NCBI GenBank assembly: GCA_951406725.2
Contig: OX597817.1
Span: forward strand, 68,758,001-68,822,000
DNA: 64,000 bases
Source: Octopus vulgaris
Taxonomy: Eukaryota
Direction of reading: 5' to 3'
Below, one piece after another: positions 317 to 49,994 of this stretch (position 1 is the first letter of the stretch; each line of letters opens with the position of its first letter). Under the pieces are notes generated by a model. The model was not told where the DNA came from. It did not search any database and saw only the letters and a list, made by a program, of their open reading frames with translations. The translations under genes were made by a program, and so were the position numbers.

Positions 317-1806
317 TTGAAGAAAGATTTTCTTAAAAAATTATTAAATGTTTAAAAGAAAATTTTAAAAAACAGAACAGAATGATGCTAACAGTTTGAA
401 AATTGTATATACATTTATATGTGTGCATACATATACTTATAAACACACAAACACAAGCTTAACACATATTGGGTGTATTAGTGCATATGCATATATATAT
501 ATGATATTGTTGCACTTTCATACGTGCACCACTTGCCTGCTCTTGTAACCTAAATACCTATTCTAGTGTATAGTTATTGCTATTCCATTAGGTAACTCAA
601 TATAAACAGATCTATCTATGTACTGAAGCATATTATTTGAGTATTGTTATGGTTGGATGCTTCCTATGCTACTTATCTACTTCTCCATATATTCTTTATG
701 ATGAGGTATGGTAAGAGCTAAATAACTAACGTTTGTTTTAGCTTCTGATTACTTTGCAGTCAAAAGACAGCGATATGTCTTCAGTCTTTCTTGGAGGTAA
801 TAATGAGTTGAAGTATTCACAGAAGGTGATAACTGGTATTAGAATTTTTGTTTGGGTTATTTGTTGGTTGTTGGCAGTTTACTTCTCTAGTATCAGGCCG
901 GTACTTATTTTCTAGATCACCAGACATCATGATCATGATCATCATCATTTTAATGTCTTCTTTTCCATGTTTGCATGGGTTAGACATAATTCTGTGAAGC
1001 AGATATGCTACAGATGGATGCCCTCCCTGTCACCAACCTTCATTTGTATCTGAAGCAGGCAACATTTCCGCATGAGTGGACATAATTGGTGATGAATAAC
1101 TCCACTTGTATGCTTGCGGTACTCATTAGCAACTATCACATGATACTTCTTTCAGTGTCGGTCTGCCAAACCCACTCACAAGGCTTTGGCTGGCCAGTGG
1201 CCTAGGTAGAAGACACCTGGCCAATATGTCATGCAGTAGTATGAACCCAAAACCACATGGTTGAGAAGCAAACTTCTTAACAACTAACCTCTATCTGCAC
1301 CTATGTAAAGTATATCATAATGGTAACAATAACTTCTAGCATAGGTACAAAAACCACAAATATGTGGTTGATGGCTTAATCCAGTATATCCATCCCAATT
1401 CTTGACTGGTACTTCATTTGATGACACCTCCACCCACCCAAGGGATAAAAAGCAAAGCTGATTCCAATGGGTTTTAATCTCAGAATGTAAAGAGTCAGAA
1501 CAAATCCTGCAAGGCATTTTTTCTGAGGCTCTAATGATTTTGCTAATTCACTGATCTCAATGATAATGATAGTAATTCTTTCTGCTGTAGACACAAAGCC
1601 TGAAATCTTTTAGGGGAGGGGGCTGGTCGACTATAATGACCCCAGTACTCAACTGGTACTTATTTGATCAACCTCGAAAGGATGAAAGGCAAAGCTGACC
1701 TCAGTGGAAATCAAACTCTGAAGACAAATGGATAAAACACCCTTAAGCATATTGTTCAATGCACTAATGATTCTGCCAGCATACCACCTTCATGATAATA
1801 ATAATA

Positions 1807-7754: not shown

Positions 7755-8161
7755 TTCCAACTCTGCTAGCATTAGTTAGATGGGTATATTACTTAGACAT
7801 TGTCTGGCAGATGGAAGCTCTCTCTGTTGCTAACACTTGTTTTTCAAGTAAAGGGTCACTTATACCATCCATTTTTGAGGGCACTAAGCTAAAAGATTTC
7901 CATGCTAGCATGAGTTAGATGGATATATTACTAAGACATTGTCTGACAGATGGAAGCTCTCTCTGTTGCTAACACTTGTTTTTCAAGTAAAGGGTCACTT
8001 ATGCCATCCATTTTCGAGGGCACTAAGCTAAAAGATTTCCATGCTAGCATGAATTAGATGGATATATTACTAAGATATTGTCTGGCAGATGGAAGCTCTT
8101 CCTGTTGCTAACACTTGTTTTTCAAGTAAAGGATCACTTATACCATCCATTTTCGAGGGCA
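7755..8161 (+). repeat. 139-bp tandem repeat, ~2.9 units
   Basis: TGCTAGCAT recurs at 7764, 7903 and 8042. Units are nearly identical. Confidence 0.95.
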
Positions 8162-8394: not shown

Positions 8395-8418
8395 ACATCT
8401 GTACACGCATGTGTGGAA

Positions 8419-8893
8419 CATAAAAAGCACTATTTGAGTGTGGCTGATGCCAGTACTGCCTGACTGGCTCCCATGCTGGTGGCACATAAAAAGTTCCCTT
8501 CAAGTATGGTTGATGCCAATGCCACTTGACTGGCTCCTGTGCTGATGGCACATAAAAAGCACCATCCAAGAATGGTCGATGCCTGTGCAACCTGGCTGAC
8601 TCCTGTGCTGGTGGCACATAAAAAGCACCATTTCAGCATGGTCAATGCCAGTGCCGCCTGGCTGGCTCCCATGCCAGTAGCACATAAAAAGCACCATCTG
8701 AGAGTGATCGATGCCAGTGCTGTTTGATTGGCTCCCATGCTGATGACACATAAAAAGCACCATTCGTGCATGGTTGATACCAGTGCCACTTGACTGGTTC
8801 CCATGCCAGTGGCATGTAAAATGTACTATTTGAATACAGTTGATACCATTGCCATCTGACTGGCCCCTGTGCCAGTGGCACGTAAAAAGCACC
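8419..8893 (+). repeat. 66-bp minisatellite, ~7.2 units
   Basis: CATAAAAAGCAC motif recurs at 8419, 8485, 8551, 8617, 8683, 8749, 8815 and 8881. Confidence 0.95.
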
Positions 8894-30796: not shown

Positions 30797-31245
30797 CTTG
30801 TACCAATGCCATGCAAGATGCACTCATGCCAGTACCATGTAAAGTGCTAGTGCAGTTGTGCTGGTGCTATGTAAACTGCATTGTGCCACTGCAATGTGAA
30901 ATGCACTTGTGTCAGTACTATGCAAAATGCACTCATGCCAGTACCATATGAAATGTAACTGGGCCAGTGCCATTCAAATACACTTGGGCCACTTCCACAT
31001 GAAATACACTTGTTTTAGTACCATGTAAAATGCAATTGTGCAAGTATCATGTAAAATGCACTTGTGTCACTTCTACGTGAAATGCACTTGTGACAGTGCT
31101 GTGCATGATGCACTCATGCCAGTACCATGTAAAATTCAATTGTGCCACTGCAATGTGAAATGCACTTGTGTCGGTGCCATGCAAGATGCACTCATGCCAG
31201 TACCACATAAAATGCACTCATGCTAGTAGCATGTATAAAGCACTC
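30797..31245 (+). repeat. 26-bp minisatellite (~17 units) at the head of a family C tail
   Basis: GCACTYRTGCCAGTRCCATGYAAAAT-like units, e.g. at 30903 and 30929. Confidence 0.9.
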
Positions 31246-34940: not shown

Positions 34941-35854
34941 GTTTAAAGGAAAGAAAAGGTGGTTGTGTCACACTTATGGATATTGCCAACTTGCAAATAA
35001 AACAACAACAATACTGCCTCAGTTTTTTTAACACTCAAATGAAGGTTAAGAGCCCCGAATATTAAATTTTTCATTGTTTGTTCCAAACAAAATTACCAAA
35101 TTCTTTTATGAAATCTCTGATGGACTAATTGTTTCCAATACTAGTTTCATAAGATTTTGGAATTTACCCTAAAAATATTTCAGTATTCTGTTTCATCTTT
35201 CTAGTTTTATCATTCAAATACCGACAAGTTAAGCTTTACGTTTCATGTTTAAAAACCCATAAAGTAATTCTTTTTCTTCCTCTTTATTTCCATTCCTTGC
35301 TATACTGCTGATCAGCCTCAGACAATTTGATACTGCATCAGTCTTCCTATGAGTAGAAGCTGCTAGCCTCTCACTCAACTAAATCTCTATTTCTGGAGTA
35401 AAGAATGATGTAAGTGGTTTACCAGAACATTTCCTCTGACAAAACATACTAGACTCCAAGAAAAAGGGAAAGAAGAACAAACCCTAGTACTTGACCAGTA
35501 TTTTATTTACCACCCCTAGAAGAATAAATGATGTATAGACTTCAATATGCAGAGAACTGGAAAAAATAGAGCAAAGCGTTCTGTTCATTCTATCCAATGC
35601 TTTAAGGGTTTGGTTAATTTGCCACCTGATATATTGTTATACAGACTCCAAGAGGATTTGAGGAAAAGTTAACTTGGTGGTATTTGAACTCAAAACATAA
35701 AAAGCCACAAGAAATGCAGCGTAGCACTTTGTTCATTCAATTCAACCAACTCACCACTTTAATAATAATAATAATAATTTTTTTCAAACCTGAGAGTTCA
35801 TCTCAGTAGAATATGAACTTATAATGTAAAGATGGACAAAATACTGCTAAGCAT

Positions 35855-36360
35855 TGGCAATGTTATCATGAACATTGTTTTTTCTTGGTACAAAAGATGG
35901 GCTACAGCAAATATTCTACTCAGTATCACGGATTTGCTTGTCAGTTGCTTGACTGTAACCAGTTGAGCATGTCTTTAAGTGGCTGATGATATGTACATCT
36001 CTGATCCTGAGCAGGAGTAATGGAGAAGCATCATAGCCATATGTAGAGTGAGATTCTTTGGAGTTTGAATAATTCACCTCTGCAAAAATAGGCATTCCAT
36101 TCATCATTCTTACACAAACCTTATTCAGGTATATTTTGAGCAGAATATGCTACTCGACTCGAAGAAAATTCTTACTGGGCTCCACCTGCAAGTTCATATG
36201 CTGTTTATCTCGATATGAGATCACCATGTTGTGCACATGTTGTTGTGATGCATGTGCCTGGTGTACCCCAATCAGACAGGCAGTCATGATGGGTATACTG
36301 GACTTCATGTATTTGTACCCCAGTGTCACTTAGATGGCATGTGCTGCTCTGTTACTTACT
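35855..36360 (+). mobile_element. Family D copy (longer)
   Basis: GATGGGCTACAGCAAATATTCT...GAGATCACCATG...CCCAGTGTCACTT shared with the other copies. Confidence 0.8.
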
Positions 36361-38246: not shown

Positions 38247-39469
38247 TGTGTGTGTGAACTTAATCCTCTGGCTACATTTCATAACTGAACAAAACATTGT
38301 TAAATGGTGCAAGATGTCCTGATTTGACAGGCAAGGGTGGCATTGAGGTAAGTCTCAGTAAAGAAGAAAAATATTTTGTATCATAATGATTATGTTAGTA
38401 TAGACATATTTAACACAGGGTGCATTAAAAAGCCAATGAGGCTTTTGTTACCTGTTTCAGTCATTAGACTCCAGCTATAAGGAGAAGGGAAGAAAAAAAC
38501 AATTAACTCAAAATTATTGACTGATATTATTGTTAATTATATTATGTTCTGATTTGCCAGACCTCAGTCAAATCGTCCAACCCATGCTAGCATGGAAAGC
38601 GGACGTTAAATGATGATGATGATGATGATGATGATGTTCAGGAGAATAATTCTGGACATGTTTTGGTATCATTTAGCCTCCTCAACAAAATGAATACCTT
38701 ACCATATTTACTAGAGTAAAGTAGAAATATTCAGTGAATAAATTACATTGTATAACAAAATTTTAATATTTTTTTTTTGTCTTTGATCAGTAAGTGGTAT
38801 TTCCTATTTGCTTCTCTAGAAATCAAAGGACATGATTACTATTCCCTTCAAACTTTTCTTTTGTGATTTGGACATTAATGCTTTGAAACTGACCAATTTT
38901 CCATTACATTTCAGTCAGATTCAGCATTGAGTTGCTGAAGCAGAAATATCATTACAACAAATCTTCTGCTCAATACTACAAATATGCTTGTCAGTTGCTT
39001 GACCATAACCAATAGAGCATGTCCCTTAGTAGCTGGCAATATATGTATCTCTAATCATGAGCAGGGGTAGTGGTGGAGCATCATAGCCTTGTGTTGAGAG
39101 AGATTCTTTGGGGTTTGAATAAATGTGACAAAAGCAAAGTTTGAAGGAAATATTAGCTATTTTTCATACTTTCAAGAGGTAAGCAAATAAGAAATAACAG
39201 TTGTTACCAAAGGACACAAATCGTATTTCACAGTGTTAGTCTTAGATGCCAATTATGGTAAAAGCTTCATATTTTATCTCTTTATTTCTAGAGGAAAGAC
39301 ATAATTTCATTGTGGAGCAAAACAGTGACTTGTATACCTGAAAAGCCAGAGGTGCTCGTTTTCACACCTTAAATTGTTGCTTACAAATATGTAGGTTAAG
39401 CTTGATGATAAAATATTAGCTATTATCAGTGACAGAAGCAGTATTAATACCATAAGACAATTTAATCTT

Positions 39470-43854: not shown

Positions 43855-44224
43855 TGACCAGATATTATTGTTCTAGACAAGAGGGAATAAGAGAGTGCAA
43901 CGTCATAGATGTGGGTATGCATATAGGGGTCAAAGAACAAGAGAAAACAGCAAAATACCAGGATTTGGTTAGGGAAATACAAAGACTATGGAGGGTTTCT
44001 ACAAAAGTTCTCTCAGTTGTCTTAGGTACCTGAGGCACCATCACCAACAGACTTCACAGTTTCATTATTGAAATTGATGTAACTATGATAGTTGTATTAT
44101 TTCAGAAATCTGTTCAACTTGGAACAGCAAGGATCGTGAGAAAGGTCCTCAGTATCTAAGGAAACTGGTTGCGACTCAGTATCAAGGAGATTGATTCTGA
44201 ATGCAGACCATTCATGCACACCAT
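43855..44224 (+). mobile_element. 3' fragment (RLE domain + 3' UTR) of an older, divergent R4/Dong-like element
   Basis: Disrupted translation PDIIVLDK...VIDVG...KEQEKTAKYQDLVREIQRLWRVSTKVLSVVLGT*GTI...FQKSVQLGTARIVRKVLSI* parallels the C-terminus of the intact ORF. Ends in (AAT)n. Confidence 0.85.
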
Positions 44225-44252
44225 TAATAATAATGATAATAATAATAATAAC

Positions 44253-44305
<53 letters not shown>

Positions 44306-44307
44306 TG

Positions 44308-44338
<31 letters not shown>

Positions 44339-44340
44339 TG

Positions 44341-44372
<32 letters not shown>
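44224..44372 (+). repeat. (AAT)n microsatellite, ~50 units with GAT/AAC variants
   Basis: Seen directly. Target and tail of the R4/Dong elements. Confidence 0.98.
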
Positions 44373-44375
<3 letters not shown>

Positions 44376-47300
44376 CGTGATACACTTCCTAAAATGGATG
44401 AGCGTGATACACTTCCTAAAATCCGCAACTCTAACCAAAACATGAAAATAATTGGTAAAATCCGGCTTGCACTTAAGGATATAATTTCAGTTAATGATGT
44501 TGATATCACAAACCTCAACCACCTATACTATGCATCCGCGAAAATCTCAACGATCCTATGTGGTGTAAAGATTAGAAAACGGCAACAGTCCCACAAAAAG
44601 CCTTCTTGGCAAGAGCGTCTGCAACAACAAATTAAAATATTTAGATCTGACATTGAATATTTGAAAAACCTTAAGGCTCACAAGATTACCAAACCTACAA
44701 AAACCCCAAAATTACTGAAAAAATACAATATGAAAACTATACTTGATATTGATGCCACCATAGAAACCATCAAACAAAAGGTATCTGCCAAAGCTGCCCG
44801 CATAGCGAGGTATGAAAAGCGTGTTAGATTTTTCAAGGACAACAACATGTTCAAAAATAACACCAAGAATTTTTACAGGAAGATAGGAAAAACAGCGTTT
44901 ACTGCAGGGTCTGTACCATCAAAAGAAGAAGTGCAGAGATTTTGGAATAAAATCTGGGCAGAAGAAAAAACACACAACGAAAAGGCCCCCTGGATTGACA
45001 GAATATCTACAGAACTGGACCCCTTAGAAGAGCAAAAGTGGGAGGGTGTCAAGGTAGAAGATATAAGATCTGCTCTCAGGAGGTCAAGCAAATGGAAGTC
45101 TCCAGGAAAGGATAAAATTCCTAACTTCTGGCTGAATGCCTTCCCAGAGAGCCATGAACTGCTAACAGAACTGTACAATGATGTTTTGCAACACTCTAGT
45201 AGGATGCCTCCTTGGCTAGTTAATGGGTTAACATTCCTGCTTCCAAAAAGTGAAGAAACAAATGAACCAAAAAACTATAGACCCATAACCTGCTTAACAA
45301 CTATGTACAAAACACTAACATCTGTCCTGACGGAATATACCTATAGTTTTTTAACAGACAGCAGCATATTCCCTAATGAACAGAAAGGATGTAAACGTGG
45401 ATCCTACGGCTGTAAAGACCAACTACTCATCAATAAGATGATCTTAGAAGATTGTCACAAACGACACAAAAACTTATCAATAGCCTGGATAGACTATAAA
45501 AAGGCTTTTGATAGCCTACCACATAGCTGGATTAGGAAATGCCTTGAAATGTATAAGATAGCACCAACTCTGCGAAACTTCTTGACTGTAAGTATGAGAT
45601 CATGGAGAACCACACTAACTCTGAACAGTGACAGTGAATCCCTAAATGCTGGTGATGTAAAAATTTCGTGTGGCATTTTCCAGGGTGACTCACTGTCACC
45701 ACTCCTCTTTTGTTTATCCTTAATACCTCTCTCAAAGCTGCTCAATGATGCGCAGTACGGGTATAAAATGTTTGATAAAAATATAAATCATCTCGTTTAC
45801 ATGGATGATTTAAAGCTTTTTGCAAAAAATGATCAACAACTCAAGGGCTTACTAGCGATAGTCAAACAATTCAGTGATGACATCAGAATGCAATTCGGCC
45901 TCGATAAATGTGCAAAGGCTACCTTTATCAAAGGAAAAATGACAGAAACATCTAACGTTAACCTTGACCAACAGAATGTCATAAAAGAACTAGACCCAGC
46001 GGAGAGCTACAAGTACCTAGGGATAATTGAAGGGAACGGAATAAGGCATTCAGAGATGAAGGAAAGGATCAGGAGAGAATGCTATCGAAGAGTGAGAGCA
46101 ATACTCAAGACAGAGCTGAATGCAAGAAACAGGATCGAAGCAATCAATGCATTAGCTATACCAGTCGTGACTTACAGTTTCAATATTGTTAACTGGTCAA
46201 TTACTGAAATATGTCAGCTCGACAGAAAAATAAGGAAACTGTTGACAATGCATAGAATGCACCACCCTAAGGCAGATACAGAACGACTCTATCTGCCAAG
46301 AAAAGAGGGAGGCCGTGGTCTTTTGCAACTGGCAATAACAATGAAGATTGCTACAATTGGCCTAGACACCTACCTGAAAAACTCTGAGGACTGGATGCTA
46401 AAACTTGTCTCAAAACATGAAAACAAGAAAGCATCATACTCAGTCACAAAACAGGCAAAGGAATATCTAAGTGAATTCCGAATACAACCAATTTCGAAAT
46501 TAGAGATAGATATACAAGAAACAAGCACAGAAAAAGCTAGGCGCATGAAAACCCGTGCCAAAACTGCGGCCTTAGATATTCTGAATAATAAATGGCAAGA
46601 AAAACCTCTCTATGGCAAATACCCAAAGAGAGCGAATAATGCAGATATCGACAAAGCCCTGACCCATCAATGGCTAATGGCCTCTGGCTTAAAATCTGAA
46701 ACAGAGGGGTTTATCATAGCAGCTCAAGATCAATGCCTACCAACAAGAAACTACCAGGCCAACATATTAAAGATCAGAAGCAGTCCAACGTGTCGTGTAT
46801 GCAAGCAACAAAATGAAACCACTGACCATGTGGTCTCCAAGTGCAGTCTTCTAGCGCCTACAGAGTATCTCAACAGGCACGATAGAGCTGCACAATATAT
46901 TCACTGGGTAATCTGTAAAAACCTGGATTTGCCCCATGAAAAAAACTGGTGGGAACACAAACCACCCCCAGTGCTTGAAAATGACCACATCTCACTCCTC
47001 TGGAACTTCACCATTCAAACTGACAGGAAGATAGATGCAAATAGGCCAGACATCATATTGAAAAACTTCACACAAAGAACATGCCTCCTCATTGATATGA
47101 CTGTCCCAATCAATATAAACGTATCTGTCAAGACCTACCAAAAACTGAGCAAATATAAAGATCTTGAAATAGAAATCAGCAAAATGTGGAAGCTGAAGAC
47201 TAAAACAATACCTGTTGTCATAGGTGCCCTGGGAATGATAGCAAAAGGGGCTGATAGCTACCTAACTCAGATACCAGGAAACCCAAAAATGGCAGAAGTT

Positions 47301-47571
47301 CAAAAGATAGTGCTCATGGGAACTGCTCATATCCTACGCAAAATACTCTCTATGTAATCTCAAGGTTTAAAACAAACATAATTTTCGGTTTAAAAAAAAA
47401 AAAAAAAAATTTTTTTTTTTTTAGACATTCATTAGTACAACATCCCCACCCCCCAAATATATGGCACACTAGGCATAACAACAACATGAACTTCCAACCC
47501 TGTTGTCTCTTGAGGTCTCTGGGTGAGACTTGGAGCCAACTTGTACAAATATAAAGCAAAAGTCAAACATA

Positions 47572-47572
<1 letters not shown>
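44371..47572 (+). mobile_element. Young R4/Dong-type LINE copy inserted in (TAA)n
   Basis: Intact ORF, ~215 bp 3' UTR (47358-47572), (AAT)n on both sides (44224-44372 and 47573-47613). TAA-repeat targeting is the known behaviour of Dong. Confidence 0.9.
44394..47357 (+). CDS. Non-LTR retrotransposon protein, R4/Dong clade (reverse transcriptase + CCHC zinc knuckle + restriction-like endonuclease), 987 aa from ATG 44394, probably 5'-truncated
   Basis: Stop-free frame with RT motifs KWKSPGKDKI, NYRPITCLTTMYK, EQKGCKRG, IAWIDYKKAFDSLPHSW, GIFQGDSLSPLLF, HLVYMDDLKL (YMDD 45798-45809) and YKYLG. These are followed by RLYLPRKEGGRGL, CRVC-x8-H-x4-C, RHD and the RLE motif NRPDII...IDMTVP...KLSKYKDL. 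No APE domain. Confidence 0.95.
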   Translation: MDERDTLPKIRNSNQNMKIIGKIRLALKDIISVNDVDITNLNHLYYASAKISTILCGVKIRKRQQSHKKPSWQERLQQQIKIFRSDIEYLKNLKAHKITKPTKTPKLLKKYNMKTILDIDATIETIKQKVSAKAARIARYEKRVRFFKDNNMFKNNTKNFYRKIGKTAFTAGSVPSKEEVQRFWNKIWAEEKTHNEKAPWIDRISTELDPLEEQKWEGVKVEDIRSALRRSSKWKSPGKDKIPNFWLNAFPESHELLTELYNDVLQHSSRMPPWLVNGLTFLLPKSEETNEPKNYRPITCLTTMYKTLTSVLTEYTYSFLTDSSIFPNEQKGCKRGSYGCKDQLLINKMILEDCHKRHKNLSIAWIDYKKAFDSLPHSWIRKCLEMYKIAPTLRNFLTVSMRSWRTTLTLNSDSESLNAGDVKISCGIFQGDSLSPLLFCLSLIPLSKLLNDAQYGYKMFDKNINHLVYMDDLKLFAKNDQQLKGLLAIVKQFSDDIRMQFGLDKCAKATFIKGKMTETSNVNLDQQNVIKELDPAESYKYLGIIEGNGIRHSEMKERIRRECYRRVRAILKTELNARNRIEAINALAIPVVTYSFNIVNWSITEICQLDRKIRKLLTMHRMHHPKADTERLYLPRKEGGRGLLQLAITMKIATIGLDTYLKNSEDWMLKLVSKHENKKASYSVTKQAKEYLSEFRIQPISKLEIDIQETSTEKARRMKTRAKTAALDILNNKWQEKPLYGKYPKRANNADIDKALTHQWLMASGLKSETEGFIIAAQDQCLPTRNYQANILKIRSSPTCRVCKQQNETTDHVVSKCSLLAPTEYLNRHDRAAQYIHWVICKNLDLPHEKNWWEHKPPPVLENDHISLLWNFTIQTDRKIDANRPDIILKNFTQRTCLLIDMTVPININVSVKTYQKLSKYKDLEIEISKMWKLKTKTIPVVIGALGMIAKGADSYLTQIPGNPKMAEVQKIVLMGTAHILRKILSM

Positions 47573-47613
<41 letters not shown>

Positions 47614-47614
<1 letters not shown>

Positions 47615-49020
47615 CCATTCTATGAATAAATGGTAGACAGTGCTACAGCTCCAAACAAAAGAGGAACTTGTAAAAAAACAAAGCCATCCCCATTAGAAGA
47701 GGAATATTCCAAGGAGACACACTCTCTCCACTCCTTTTCTGCTTGGCACTGATACCTTTATCTAACATGCTAAACAGAACTGGAAGCAGATACAACTGTT
47801 ATGGCAAAACAATCAGCCACCTCTTATATATGGATGACCTAAAACTGTGTGCTACAAATGATAAACAGCTGGAAACATTATTATGGAGATTACATGGATT
47901 TACCAAAGACATATGAAATTTGGCTTAAAAAAAATGTACCAAAGCAACCTTGAAAAGAGGAAAACTAGTTAAGAGTAGCAACATCACACTAGATAAAGCA
48001 AATGAAATAAGAGAATTAGACCAAAACTAGACATATAAATATTTAGTAATCAATGAACTAGATATGATACAACATACAAATGAAAGAGAAGATAAAAAAA
48101 GAGTACTATAGATGAGTTAGATTAATACTGAAAACAGAGCTCAATGTGAAAAACAAGATAATAGGTATCAACACTTTAGCCATCTCAGTTATAAGTTACA
48201 GCTACAATATCCTTAGCTGGACATTAAATGAACTAATCAAAATAGACAGGAGAACAAGAAAAATAATGATAGGATTCAGGATTCAACACCCAAAATCTGA
48301 CATAGAAAGGTTATATATACAATGTATAGAAGGTGGTAGAGGCCTTATACAGCTAGAAAAATACTACAAAGTAACCATCATAGGACTACAGAAATACCTA
48401 CTTCAGAAGCAAGGAAAACTAATACAAATAGCCACAGAACACGAATAAAACAAAAAACTGTTTTCAGTATTTAAGGAAGCTGACAAATACAAACAAGAAA
48501 TCACACTATCTGACAACTATGAAGAAAAAGAAGAAACAACAAAAGCTGTAAAACGAATGAAATCCAAACTAATACTAGAACAGCAACAGATCATGATAAA
48601 ATGATGGCAAGAAAAGCCCCTTCATGGCAAATACTGGGTTAAACTAAATGTAAAAGAAATAAACAAGGCAAAATACCAACAATGGCTGAGAAGCCCAGGG
48701 CTTAAAGCAGAGACTGAAGGATTTTTAATTGCAGCACAAGACCAAAGCCTCCACACCAGAAATTACCAAAAACATATGATGAAATGACGCATAACAAGTA
48801 ACTGCAGAATATGTGGAGATGGACAAGGAATAACAAATCATATTGTCTCTGGTTGCTCAGTCCTGGCTAAGAAGGAATATATTCACAGACACAACAAAGT
48901 TGGGACCTACATACACTGTAAGCTATGCCAACACTATGGAATAACAATAGAAAAAGATGCTATAAGCAGATGCCAGAAAAGGTCACAGAAAATGAGAAAG
49001 CAACAATACTATGGGATAGA
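47614..49020 (+). pseudogene. Decayed, doubly truncated R4/Dong RT (different subfamily)
   Basis: RRGIFQGDTLSPLLFCLALIPL, HLLYMDDLKL, HPKSDIERLYIQCIEGGRGLIQL, LKAETEGFLIAAQDQSL, CRICGD...HIVSGC and ENEKATILWD, with stops and frameshifts. Starts right after the TAA run. Confidence 0.93.
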
Positions 49021-49027
49021 GAAATAT

Positions 49028-49572
49028 GAGTATATTGGGCTTCATATAATTGTACCCCAGTCTCACTGTGATGGCATGCACTACTCTCACTCAATAATAA
49101 CAATGGGCTACAGCAAATATTCTGCTTAATACAACAGATTTGGTTCTCAGTTATTTGACCATAACCAGTTGAACATGTCCCTTAGTGGCTGATGATATGT
49201 GTATCTCTGATCACGAGCAGAGGTAGTGGGGGAGCATCATAGCCATGTGTTGAGAGGAATTCTTTGGGGTTTGAATAACTCACCTTTGGAAATATGGGTG
49301 TTTCATTTAATATACTTACACAACCCTTATTCAGGGACCTTTTGTGTGGGATGGGATACTTGACCTGAAGAAAATTCGAACTGGGCTGCACCTGTAAGGT
49401 CATGTGCAGTTTATCTTGATATGAGATCACCATGTTGCGCACATGTGCTTGTGATGCATGTGTTTGGTGTACCCTTATCAGACGGGTAATCATGATAGGT
49501 ATACTGGACTTCATGTATTTTACCGCAGTGTCACTTTGATGGCATTTATTGCTCTCTCACTCAATAATAATA
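49028..49572 (+). mobile_element. Two tandem family D copies (short 3' end 49028-49092; longer copy 49103-49562)
   Basis: Both end CTCTCACTC-AATAATAA, immediately downstream of the decayed R4 RT. Confidence 0.8.
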
Positions 49573-49792: not shown

Positions 49793-49994
49793 GCTCCCCA
49801 ACTACTTCTGATCATATCATCAGCTACTAAAGGACATGCTCAACTGGTTAAGGTCAAGTAACTGACAAGCAAATCTGTGGTATGGAGCAGAATATTTGCT
49901 GTAGCCCATCTTTTACACCAAAACAAAACAATGTACATGATAACACTTCCAACCAGTTAAGATCAAAAGACATGGGAGCCACTGCATAAGGGCT
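49793..49994 (-). mobile_element. Family D 5' portion, inverted
   Basis: Reverse complement matches 35860-36030 and extends further 5'. Abuts (ATT)n at 49995-50062. Confidence 0.75.

What the first reader, a model, noticed from the sequence alone, without database searches (positions are those of the whole stretch)
44371..47613. Uninterrupted, microsatellite-targeting R4/Dong retrotransposon ORF among otherwise decayed repeats
Seen: 987 codons without a stop, all RT, CCHC and RLE catalytic motifs intact, 3' UTR ending directly in (AAT)n, and (AAT)n at the 5' side. Established: R4-clade elements use a site-specific restriction-like endonuclease, and Dong of Bombyx inserts in TAA repeats. Inference: a very recent insertion from a probably active family, encoding a compact TAA-specific TPRT enzyme.
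Basis: partly seen in the sequence, partly recalled or inferred. Interest (0 to 1): 0.75.

Follow-up and report, generated by a model that had tools for sequence, protein, structure and literature searches.

The report
Truncated Dong retrotransposon in TAA repeat
This is a cut-short, likely inactive copy of a young jumping-gene family whose copies sit almost only inside TAA repeats, a habit already known for this group; the unusual details are that full-length copies often start with new GAA repeats, likely made by the enzyme re-copying the start of its RNA, and that a short non-coding repeat occupies the same kind of site.

Summary
The 987-codon frame, its RT/CCHC/RLE motifs and both (AAT)n flanks are real. 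But this copy is 5'-truncated: full-length sisters are 4.96 kb with a 1272-aa ORF; this one lacks the 913-nt 5' UTR and residues 1-285, including the Myb-like domain. It is not a compact enzyme. The family is young and large: 2,048 exact 3' ends (92% run into (AAT)3), about 60-100 full-length starts, 33 of 150 scored copies with a full-length open frame. In a positional sample, 48 of 54 5' junctions lie within 60 nt of (AAT)3 (background 1%). TAA targeting by Dong, including in molluscs, and recently active Dong-R4 families in O. vulgaris are in print; this scan noted Dong stacking in TAA before, in other genomes. Not found in my searches: 8 of 55 full-length junctions carry (GAA)3-22 against 0 of 55 truncated ones, which fits repeated re-copying of the RNA start; and a 555-nt non-coding repeat with thousands of copies shares the target. 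No empty site, named-reference tree or expression data were obtained. New member of a known kind.

The parts
43890..44207 (+). 3' end of an older, decayed Dong-like element (RLE remnant and short 3' UTR) whose AAT tail forms the left flank
   Evidence: tblastn 37% to residues 1180-1272, E 6e-12, with stops; end of the UTR read from the sequence
44208..44372 (+). Upstream (AAT)n with a few GAT/AAC units; inferred target array
   Evidence: strict run 44226-44372 = 147 bp
44371..44395 (+). 25-nt re-copied piece at the 5' junction (same as 44398-44422), joined to the target through a shared AT
   Evidence: full-length copies have other sequence here; similar re-copied pieces at 4 of 55 truncated junctions
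44394..47357 (+). 5'-truncated ORF, 987 aa = residues 286-1272 of the family protein: RT, CCHC knuckle, restriction-like endonuclease
   Evidence: 99.5% amino-acid identity to full-length copy L061
45798..45809 (+). RT active-site YMDD
   Evidence: both D in 117 of 117 nearest relatives
46791..46844 (+). CCHC zinc knuckle; carries private I1095T at 46822
   Evidence: I/V/L in 311 of 313 relatives aligned there
47049..47156 (+). RLE core: PD (D1171), D1186, K1202, KY intact; private D1192N at 47112
   Evidence: position 1192 is D/E in 116 of 117 nearest relatives but variable in the wider set (D161, T83, S25, E19, N8, A5)
47358..47572 (+). 3' UTR, 215 nt, with a fixed family 3' end
47573..47611 (+). 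(AAT)13 downstream flank
47614..49010 (+). Second decayed, 5'-truncated Dong-like element of another family, stacked in the same array
   Evidence: tblastn 44-51% over 47701-48958 with stops and frameshifts
49026..49569 (+). Two partial copies of a 555-nt non-coding repeat ('X') that elsewhere sits between (AAT)n runs
   Evidence: blastn 88% to L270 copy at 49026-49099 and 49108-49569

Best explanation
This is a 5'-truncated, likely dead-on-arrival copy of a young Dong-like (R4-type) LINE family that likely inserts by nicking (TAA)n arrays and reverse-transcribing its RNA from the nick. Shown: the anatomy, the truncation at Met286, the copy numbers and the AAT flanks at both ends of most copies. 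Inferred from R2 biochemistry: a full-length 1272-aa protein (Myb-like domain, RT, CCHC, RLE) binds its RNA, nicks the TTA strand and primes there. When copying stops, the cDNA end re-anneals on the RNA or on the target through 1-3 matching bases and may re-copy a short stretch, once or many times, before the second strand is primed on the upstream TAA. In this copy that left a 25-nt duplication. At the true RNA start (inferred G-A-A-G) a 3-nt slip would give the (GAA)n runs seen only at full-length copies. Each insertion leaves AAT on both sides, so later elements stack in the same array, as here.
For: 2,048 exact 3' ends, 1,882 followed by (AAT)3. In 60 of the first 69 listed copies on C1 (59 aligned, 54 with the junction in view), 48 have (AAT)3 within 60 nt of the 5' junction and 38 within 5 nt, against 0.96% and 0.35% of positions in this window. 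All 55 young full-length junctions have upstream AAT. Full-length element 4,962 nt, 913-nt 5' UTR, 1272 aa. 33 of 150 scored copies have an open frame of 1276 codons or more. Model pLDDT 88.6; best solved matches are R2 proteins. (GAA)3 or more at 8 of 55 full-length against 0 of 55 truncated junctions, p 0.006, and after 4 of 455 AAT runs; tandem re-copies of the first 12-45 nt at 8 more; GAA runs also at 5 of 19 starts of an older subfamily (read by eye). PMC7998251 states TAA as the Dong target in most insects, molluscs and cnidarians (passages).
Against: No empty (pre-insertion) site was seen, so a pre-existing target is inferred, and 6 of 54 junctions lack nearby AAT. No tree with named Dong, R4 or Rex6 sequences (none returned). 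The 5' HDV-like ribozyme reported for B. mori Dong and R4 (PMC3774820) was not found. Only 24 of 59 sampled copies are 98% or more alike to the reference copy, so most 3' ends are older. In O. bimaculoides a Dong element showed no insertion polymorphism (PMC9115989). The full-length set was partly picked by a pattern starting AAGG. Raw reads of two other runs were almost blank and gave nothing.
Confidence: 0.88

Rival explanations
1. The element inserts without sequence preference and makes its own AAT (tail slippage plus target-site duplication or junction synthesis).
For: No empty site seen; LINE tails can be made by slippage (recalled); the enzyme visibly re-copies short pieces at junctions.
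Against: A tail explains only the 3' side, yet 48 of 54 5' junctions at scattered truncation points have AAT. Left flanks are often the AAT tails of unrelated elements, as in this window.
Confidence: 0.06
2. This copy is itself a working, compact TPRT enzyme.
For: Unbroken 987 codons from an in-frame ATG; canonical RT and RLE residues intact; N occurs at position 1192 in 8 wider relatives.
Against: Lacks the 5' UTR and residues 1-285, including a domain conserved in relatives. Removing the N-terminal DNA-binding domains of R2Bm abolishes nicking (PMC10499050, passage). Its 5 private substitutions occur in none of 38-60 sister copies, so it has no daughters among them.
Confidence: 0.04
3. The (GAA)n at full-length starts are pre-existing compound (AAT)n(GAA)n microsatellites, not products of insertion.
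For: Compound arrays exist in this genome (4 of 455 AAT runs; some 3' flanks).
Against: 0 of 55 truncated junctions show them; they abut the element start in register and recur in two subfamilies.
Confidence: 0.15

Closest known systems
Dong (Bombyx mori), DongAg, DongBg, ostracod Dong1/2; R4/Dong clade (PMC3812793, PMC7998251, PMC3774820; passages read)
   Same: Single ORF with RT, CCHC and C-terminal RLE; no N-terminal zinc finger; (TAA)n target; start at G directly after TAA, as in the B. mori Dong junction given in PMC3774820; conserved helical N-terminal domain where a Myb/SANT-like domain is reported.
   Different: No HDV-like ribozyme found at the 5' end; 913-nt 5' UTR; GAA runs and tandem re-copies at full-length starts, which I did not find described for Dong.
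Dong-R4 families of Octopus vulgaris (PMC13282606; parts 1-2 of 3 and one supplement look-up)
   Same: The paper counts 5 recently active Dong-R4 families with 1,129 insertions, and 51 families over 92.7 Mb; this family is probably among them if the host is that species.
   Different: The parts read give no target site, junction or domain analysis; its consensus sequences are on an outside repository that I could not see, so identity is untested.
R2 (R2Bm, R2Tg; PDB 8gh6, 9nl3)
   Same: Same RT-CCHC-RLE fold and catalytic spacing; microhomology, added bases and tandem duplications at 5' junctions are described for R2 (PMC2718515, PMC3774820; passages).
   Different: 16-18% identity in the structural alignments; target is TAA repeats, not 28S rDNA; no N-terminal C2H2 finger.

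Membership tests
R4/Dong non-LTR retrotransposons | Single ORF with RT, CCHC and C-terminal restriction-like endonuclease | tested here: met
R4/Dong non-LTR retrotransposons | Insertion into (TAA)n (Dong subgroup) | tested here: met
   1,882 of 2,048 3' ends; 48 of 54 5' junctions against 1% background; empty sites not seen
R4/Dong non-LTR retrotransposons | No N-terminal zinc finger | tested here: met
   No C2H2-type pattern in residues 1-480 of L061; no Pfam match there
R4/Dong non-LTR retrotransposons | N-terminal Myb/SANT-like domain | tested here: inconclusive
   Residues about 121-206 form a conserved, confidently modelled helical domain with two conserved W; Atlas first hit Myb_Rap1 at 0.86, a lead only; no Myb family in Pfam for L061 or 35 relatives. 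Absent from the window copy.
R4/Dong non-LTR retrotransposons | HDV-like ribozyme at the 5' end (reported for B. mori Dong and Ascaris R4) | tested here: inconclusive
   No Rfam match near threshold; no canonical L3/P1.1 in my descriptor scan; candidate core not kept in an older subfamily; cleavage untested
R4/Dong non-LTR retrotransposons | RT phylogeny groups with named Dong/R4/Rex6 | not testable with these tools
   Three protein searches listed no entry named Dong, R4 or Rex6 among the 120 shown each; no tree was built
R2 | Insertion at the 28S rDNA site | tested here: not met
   Flanks are (AAT)n at dispersed sites
R2 | N-terminal C2H2 zinc finger(s) | tested here: not met

The most novel reading that the evidence does not exclude
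The Dong reverse transcriptase copies the first three bases of its RNA over and over, telomerase-fashion, and so creates new (GAA)n microsatellites at full-length insertions; and Dong enzymes of this genome also carry an abundant 555-nt non-coding passenger into (TAA)n although it shares no 3' sequence with any Dong tail seen here, which would make it a TAA-specific SINE-like element moved by a restriction-like-endonuclease LINE.
Probability: 0.45. Interest if true: 0.6.

Novelty: new member of a known kind. Interest (0 to 1): 0.35.

Why it matters
The window copy is ordinary. The family is useful: my searches listed no biochemical TPRT study of a Dong protein, and here dozens of natural intact ORFs and about two thousand junctions make the question of how an RLE element recognises a microsatellite testable. 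The junctions suggest a route by which one microsatellite (TAA) seeds another (GAA), and the non-coding repeat may show that such enzymes move RNAs unrelated to their own.

Tried and rejected
1) Longer AAT upstream than downstream (median 75 vs 27 nt, p 3e-5) suggested an R2-like upstream footprint; in the positional sample it did not hold (p 0.15 and 0.90), so it was dropped. 2) D1192N as a killing change: conserved in the 117 nearest relatives but variable in 316; not claimed. 3) HDV-like ribozyme or xrRNA at the 5' end: no Rfam match, no canonical descriptor hit, fold z -0.9 and -0.2, core changed in the older subfamily. 4) Single-sequence model of residues 101-187 (pLDDT 58) gave no fold match. 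5) Reads: two raw runs laid only 3 and 100 reads, and joints at repeats were skipped, so no copy number or empty site; contigs of two other samples show the family's presence only. Expression and presence in other species remain unexamined. 6) No Dong ORF was found whose 3' UTR is repeat X. 7) Xiong and Eickbush 1993 is not held; Kojima and Fujiwara 2004 was seen only as a citation.

Full report
Observation. The frame from ATG 44394 to the stop at 47357 is 987 residues, the only long frame in the window. It matches RVT_1 (E 9e-28) and solved R2 proteins (E 4e-29). YMDD, CCHC, RH and the RLE residues that correspond by alignment and spacing to R2Bm D996, D1009 and K1026 (PMC10499050, passages) are present as D1171, D1186 and K1202. 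The 3' UTR ends at 47572 in (AAT)13, and a 147-bp AAT-type run ends at 44372. Decayed Dong-like relics of other families lie on both sides, at 37% and 44-51% identity, so three elements are stacked in one array. The host genome G000 has 2.80 Gb in 227 contigs; its size fits the octopus genome described in PMC13282606, so I take the host to be probably an octopus.

The copy is truncated. Twenty stretches around long copies show a 4,962-nt element with a 913-nt 5' UTR and a 1272-aa ORF; 6 of the 20 held an ORF of 1265 residues or more. The window copy begins at Met286. It lacks a region conserved among relatives that models as a separate helical domain, residues about 121-206, followed by a disordered linker (mean pLDDT 88.6). 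PMC7998251 (passages) reports a Myb/SANT-like domain there in R4/Dong elements; my own support is a lead only (Atlas 0.86; nothing in Pfam). The copy has 5 substitutions found in none of 38-60 sisters: P553S, I1095T, K1178T, D1192N and one silent. D1192 is D or E in 116 of the 117 nearest relatives but variable among 316, so I do not call it fatal. Five changes in about 3,180 nt, at the rate of 0.0036 per million years quoted in PMC13282606, give roughly 0.4 million years; assembly and copying errors would make it younger.

The family. Searches with either end of the copy gave 1,558 and 1,044 candidates; the 40 scored each were 98-100% alike. An exact 24-mer at the 3' end occurs 2,048 times and is followed by (AAT)3 1,882 times. 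The 5' start occurs 59 times exactly, and a nearby 25-mer 102 times with up to 3 mismatches. Of 150 scored copies bearing the N-terminal domain, 33 have an open frame of at least 1276 codons. For a sample not chosen by flank I took 60 of the first 69 listed 3' ends on C1 (9 already held or adjacent were skipped); 59 aligned, 24 of them at 98% or more, the rest down to 83%. Of 54 with the 5' junction in view, 48 have (AAT)3 within 60 nt and 38 within 5 nt; the window background is 0.96% and 0.35%. A tail made by the element cannot explain AAT on the 5' side of copies cut at many different points, and left flanks are often the tails of other elements. No empty site was recovered, so a pre-existing target is inferred.

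Junctions. All 55 young full-length junctions examined have upstream AAT; 37 end in GAA before the fixed start, 9 join directly, 8 carry (GAA)3-22 and 8 carry tandem re-copies of the first 12-45 nt (a further locus with a 92-nt AAG run is). None of 55 truncated junctions has (GAA)3 (p 0.006), and only 4 of 455 AAT runs in those loci are followed by it. Five of 19 starts of an older subfamily show the same runs (by eye). The simplest reading is an RNA that starts G-A-A-G, or a cap read as G before A-A-G; the cDNA end slips back three bases and re-copies until it anneals to the target. Longer slips give the tandem pieces, and the window's own 25-nt duplication is the same event at a broken end (4 of 55 truncated junctions). 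Tandem duplications and added bases at R2 5' junctions are described (PMC3774820, PMC2718515; passages); GAA birth at Dong starts did not appear in searches or 98. The full-length set was partly selected by a pattern beginning AAGG. An apparent excess of upstream over downstream AAT failed in the positional sample.

5' end RNA. B. mori Dong and Ascaris R4 have a self-cleaving HDV-like ribozyme at the junction (PMC3774820). I found none here, nor an Rfam xrRNA of the kind noted earlier for other families of this genome. How the RNA start is set is open.

A second user of the target. A 555-nt repeat (X; partial copies at window 49026-49569) has 3,925 exact matches to its first 34-mer and 5,476 to its last. 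All 30 starts examined follow (AAT)n. In 40 of the first 45 listed 3' ends, 18 are full length and 31 have (AAT)3 within 60 nt of the 5' junction. Its longest frame is 57 codons and no B box was found; there is no Rfam match over it and no similarity to this element; some starts show the same re-copied pieces. No partner LINE with its tail was found. A search for non-autonomous Dong SINEs returned no paper, and the listing showed none by title; I read none of those. It is likely moved by some Dong enzyme, but which is unknown.

What is known. TAA targeting by Dong, DongAg and DongBg is reviewed in PMC3812793 (passages) and stated for most insects, molluscs and cnidarians in PMC7998251. PMC13282606 (parts 1-2 of 3; supplement look-up) counts 5 recently active Dong-R4 families with 1,129 insertions in O. 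vulgaris and gives no target analysis in what I read; its sequence library lies outside the tools. PMC9115989 (passages) found an O. bimaculoides Dong without signs of recent activity. PMC8967140, PMC4640811 and PMC4838377 were read as passages. No named Dong, R4 or Rex6 protein came up, so clade membership rests on architecture, target and the absence of R2 features, not on a tree.

Verdict. Observation confirmed; interpretation right for the family, wrong for this copy as a compact enzyme. New member of a known kind, interest 0.35; the GAA-making junctions and repeat X are the parts worth a follow-up.

Noticed in passing
window 49026-49569, 35853-36356, 1811-2148, 49813-49985 (minus), 38953-39121; full copy L270 about 960-1510 (minus): 555-nt non-coding repeat X with a sharp start, thousands of copies, (AAT)n on both sides and 5'-truncated forms; candidate TAA-specific SINE-like passenger of a Dong enzyme, partner not found.
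   Followed up: partly
L063, L071, L010, L075 and others: Copies of the same family lie head to tail in one another's AAT tails; several other Dong families with different 3' UTRs share the arrays.
   Followed up: partly
L048 and L054, near the 5' junction: 5' inversion: upstream part of the element on the opposite strand, as in twin priming (label recalled).
   Followed up: no
window 44986-44990 and 46307-46309 equivalents in sister copies: Recurrent one-base deletions in short C and G runs break many sister ORFs; may be assembly errors, so intact copies may be undercounted.
   Followed up: no
window 46497-46502 equivalents: A 6-nt in-frame deletion shared by 7 of 47 copies marks a sub-lineage that kept spreading.
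   Followed up: no
window 47395-47425: A(n) then T(n) run in the 3' UTR, variable in length between copies, able to form a hairpin.
   Followed up: no
window 7764-8161, 8413-8893, 30797-31244: Tandem arrays of 139, 66 and 26 bp units.
   Followed up: no
P0092, P0200: Close relatives of this animal LINE protein are filed under bacterial names (a cyanobacterial MAG, Streptomyces), on short contigs; probably contamination.
   Followed up: no
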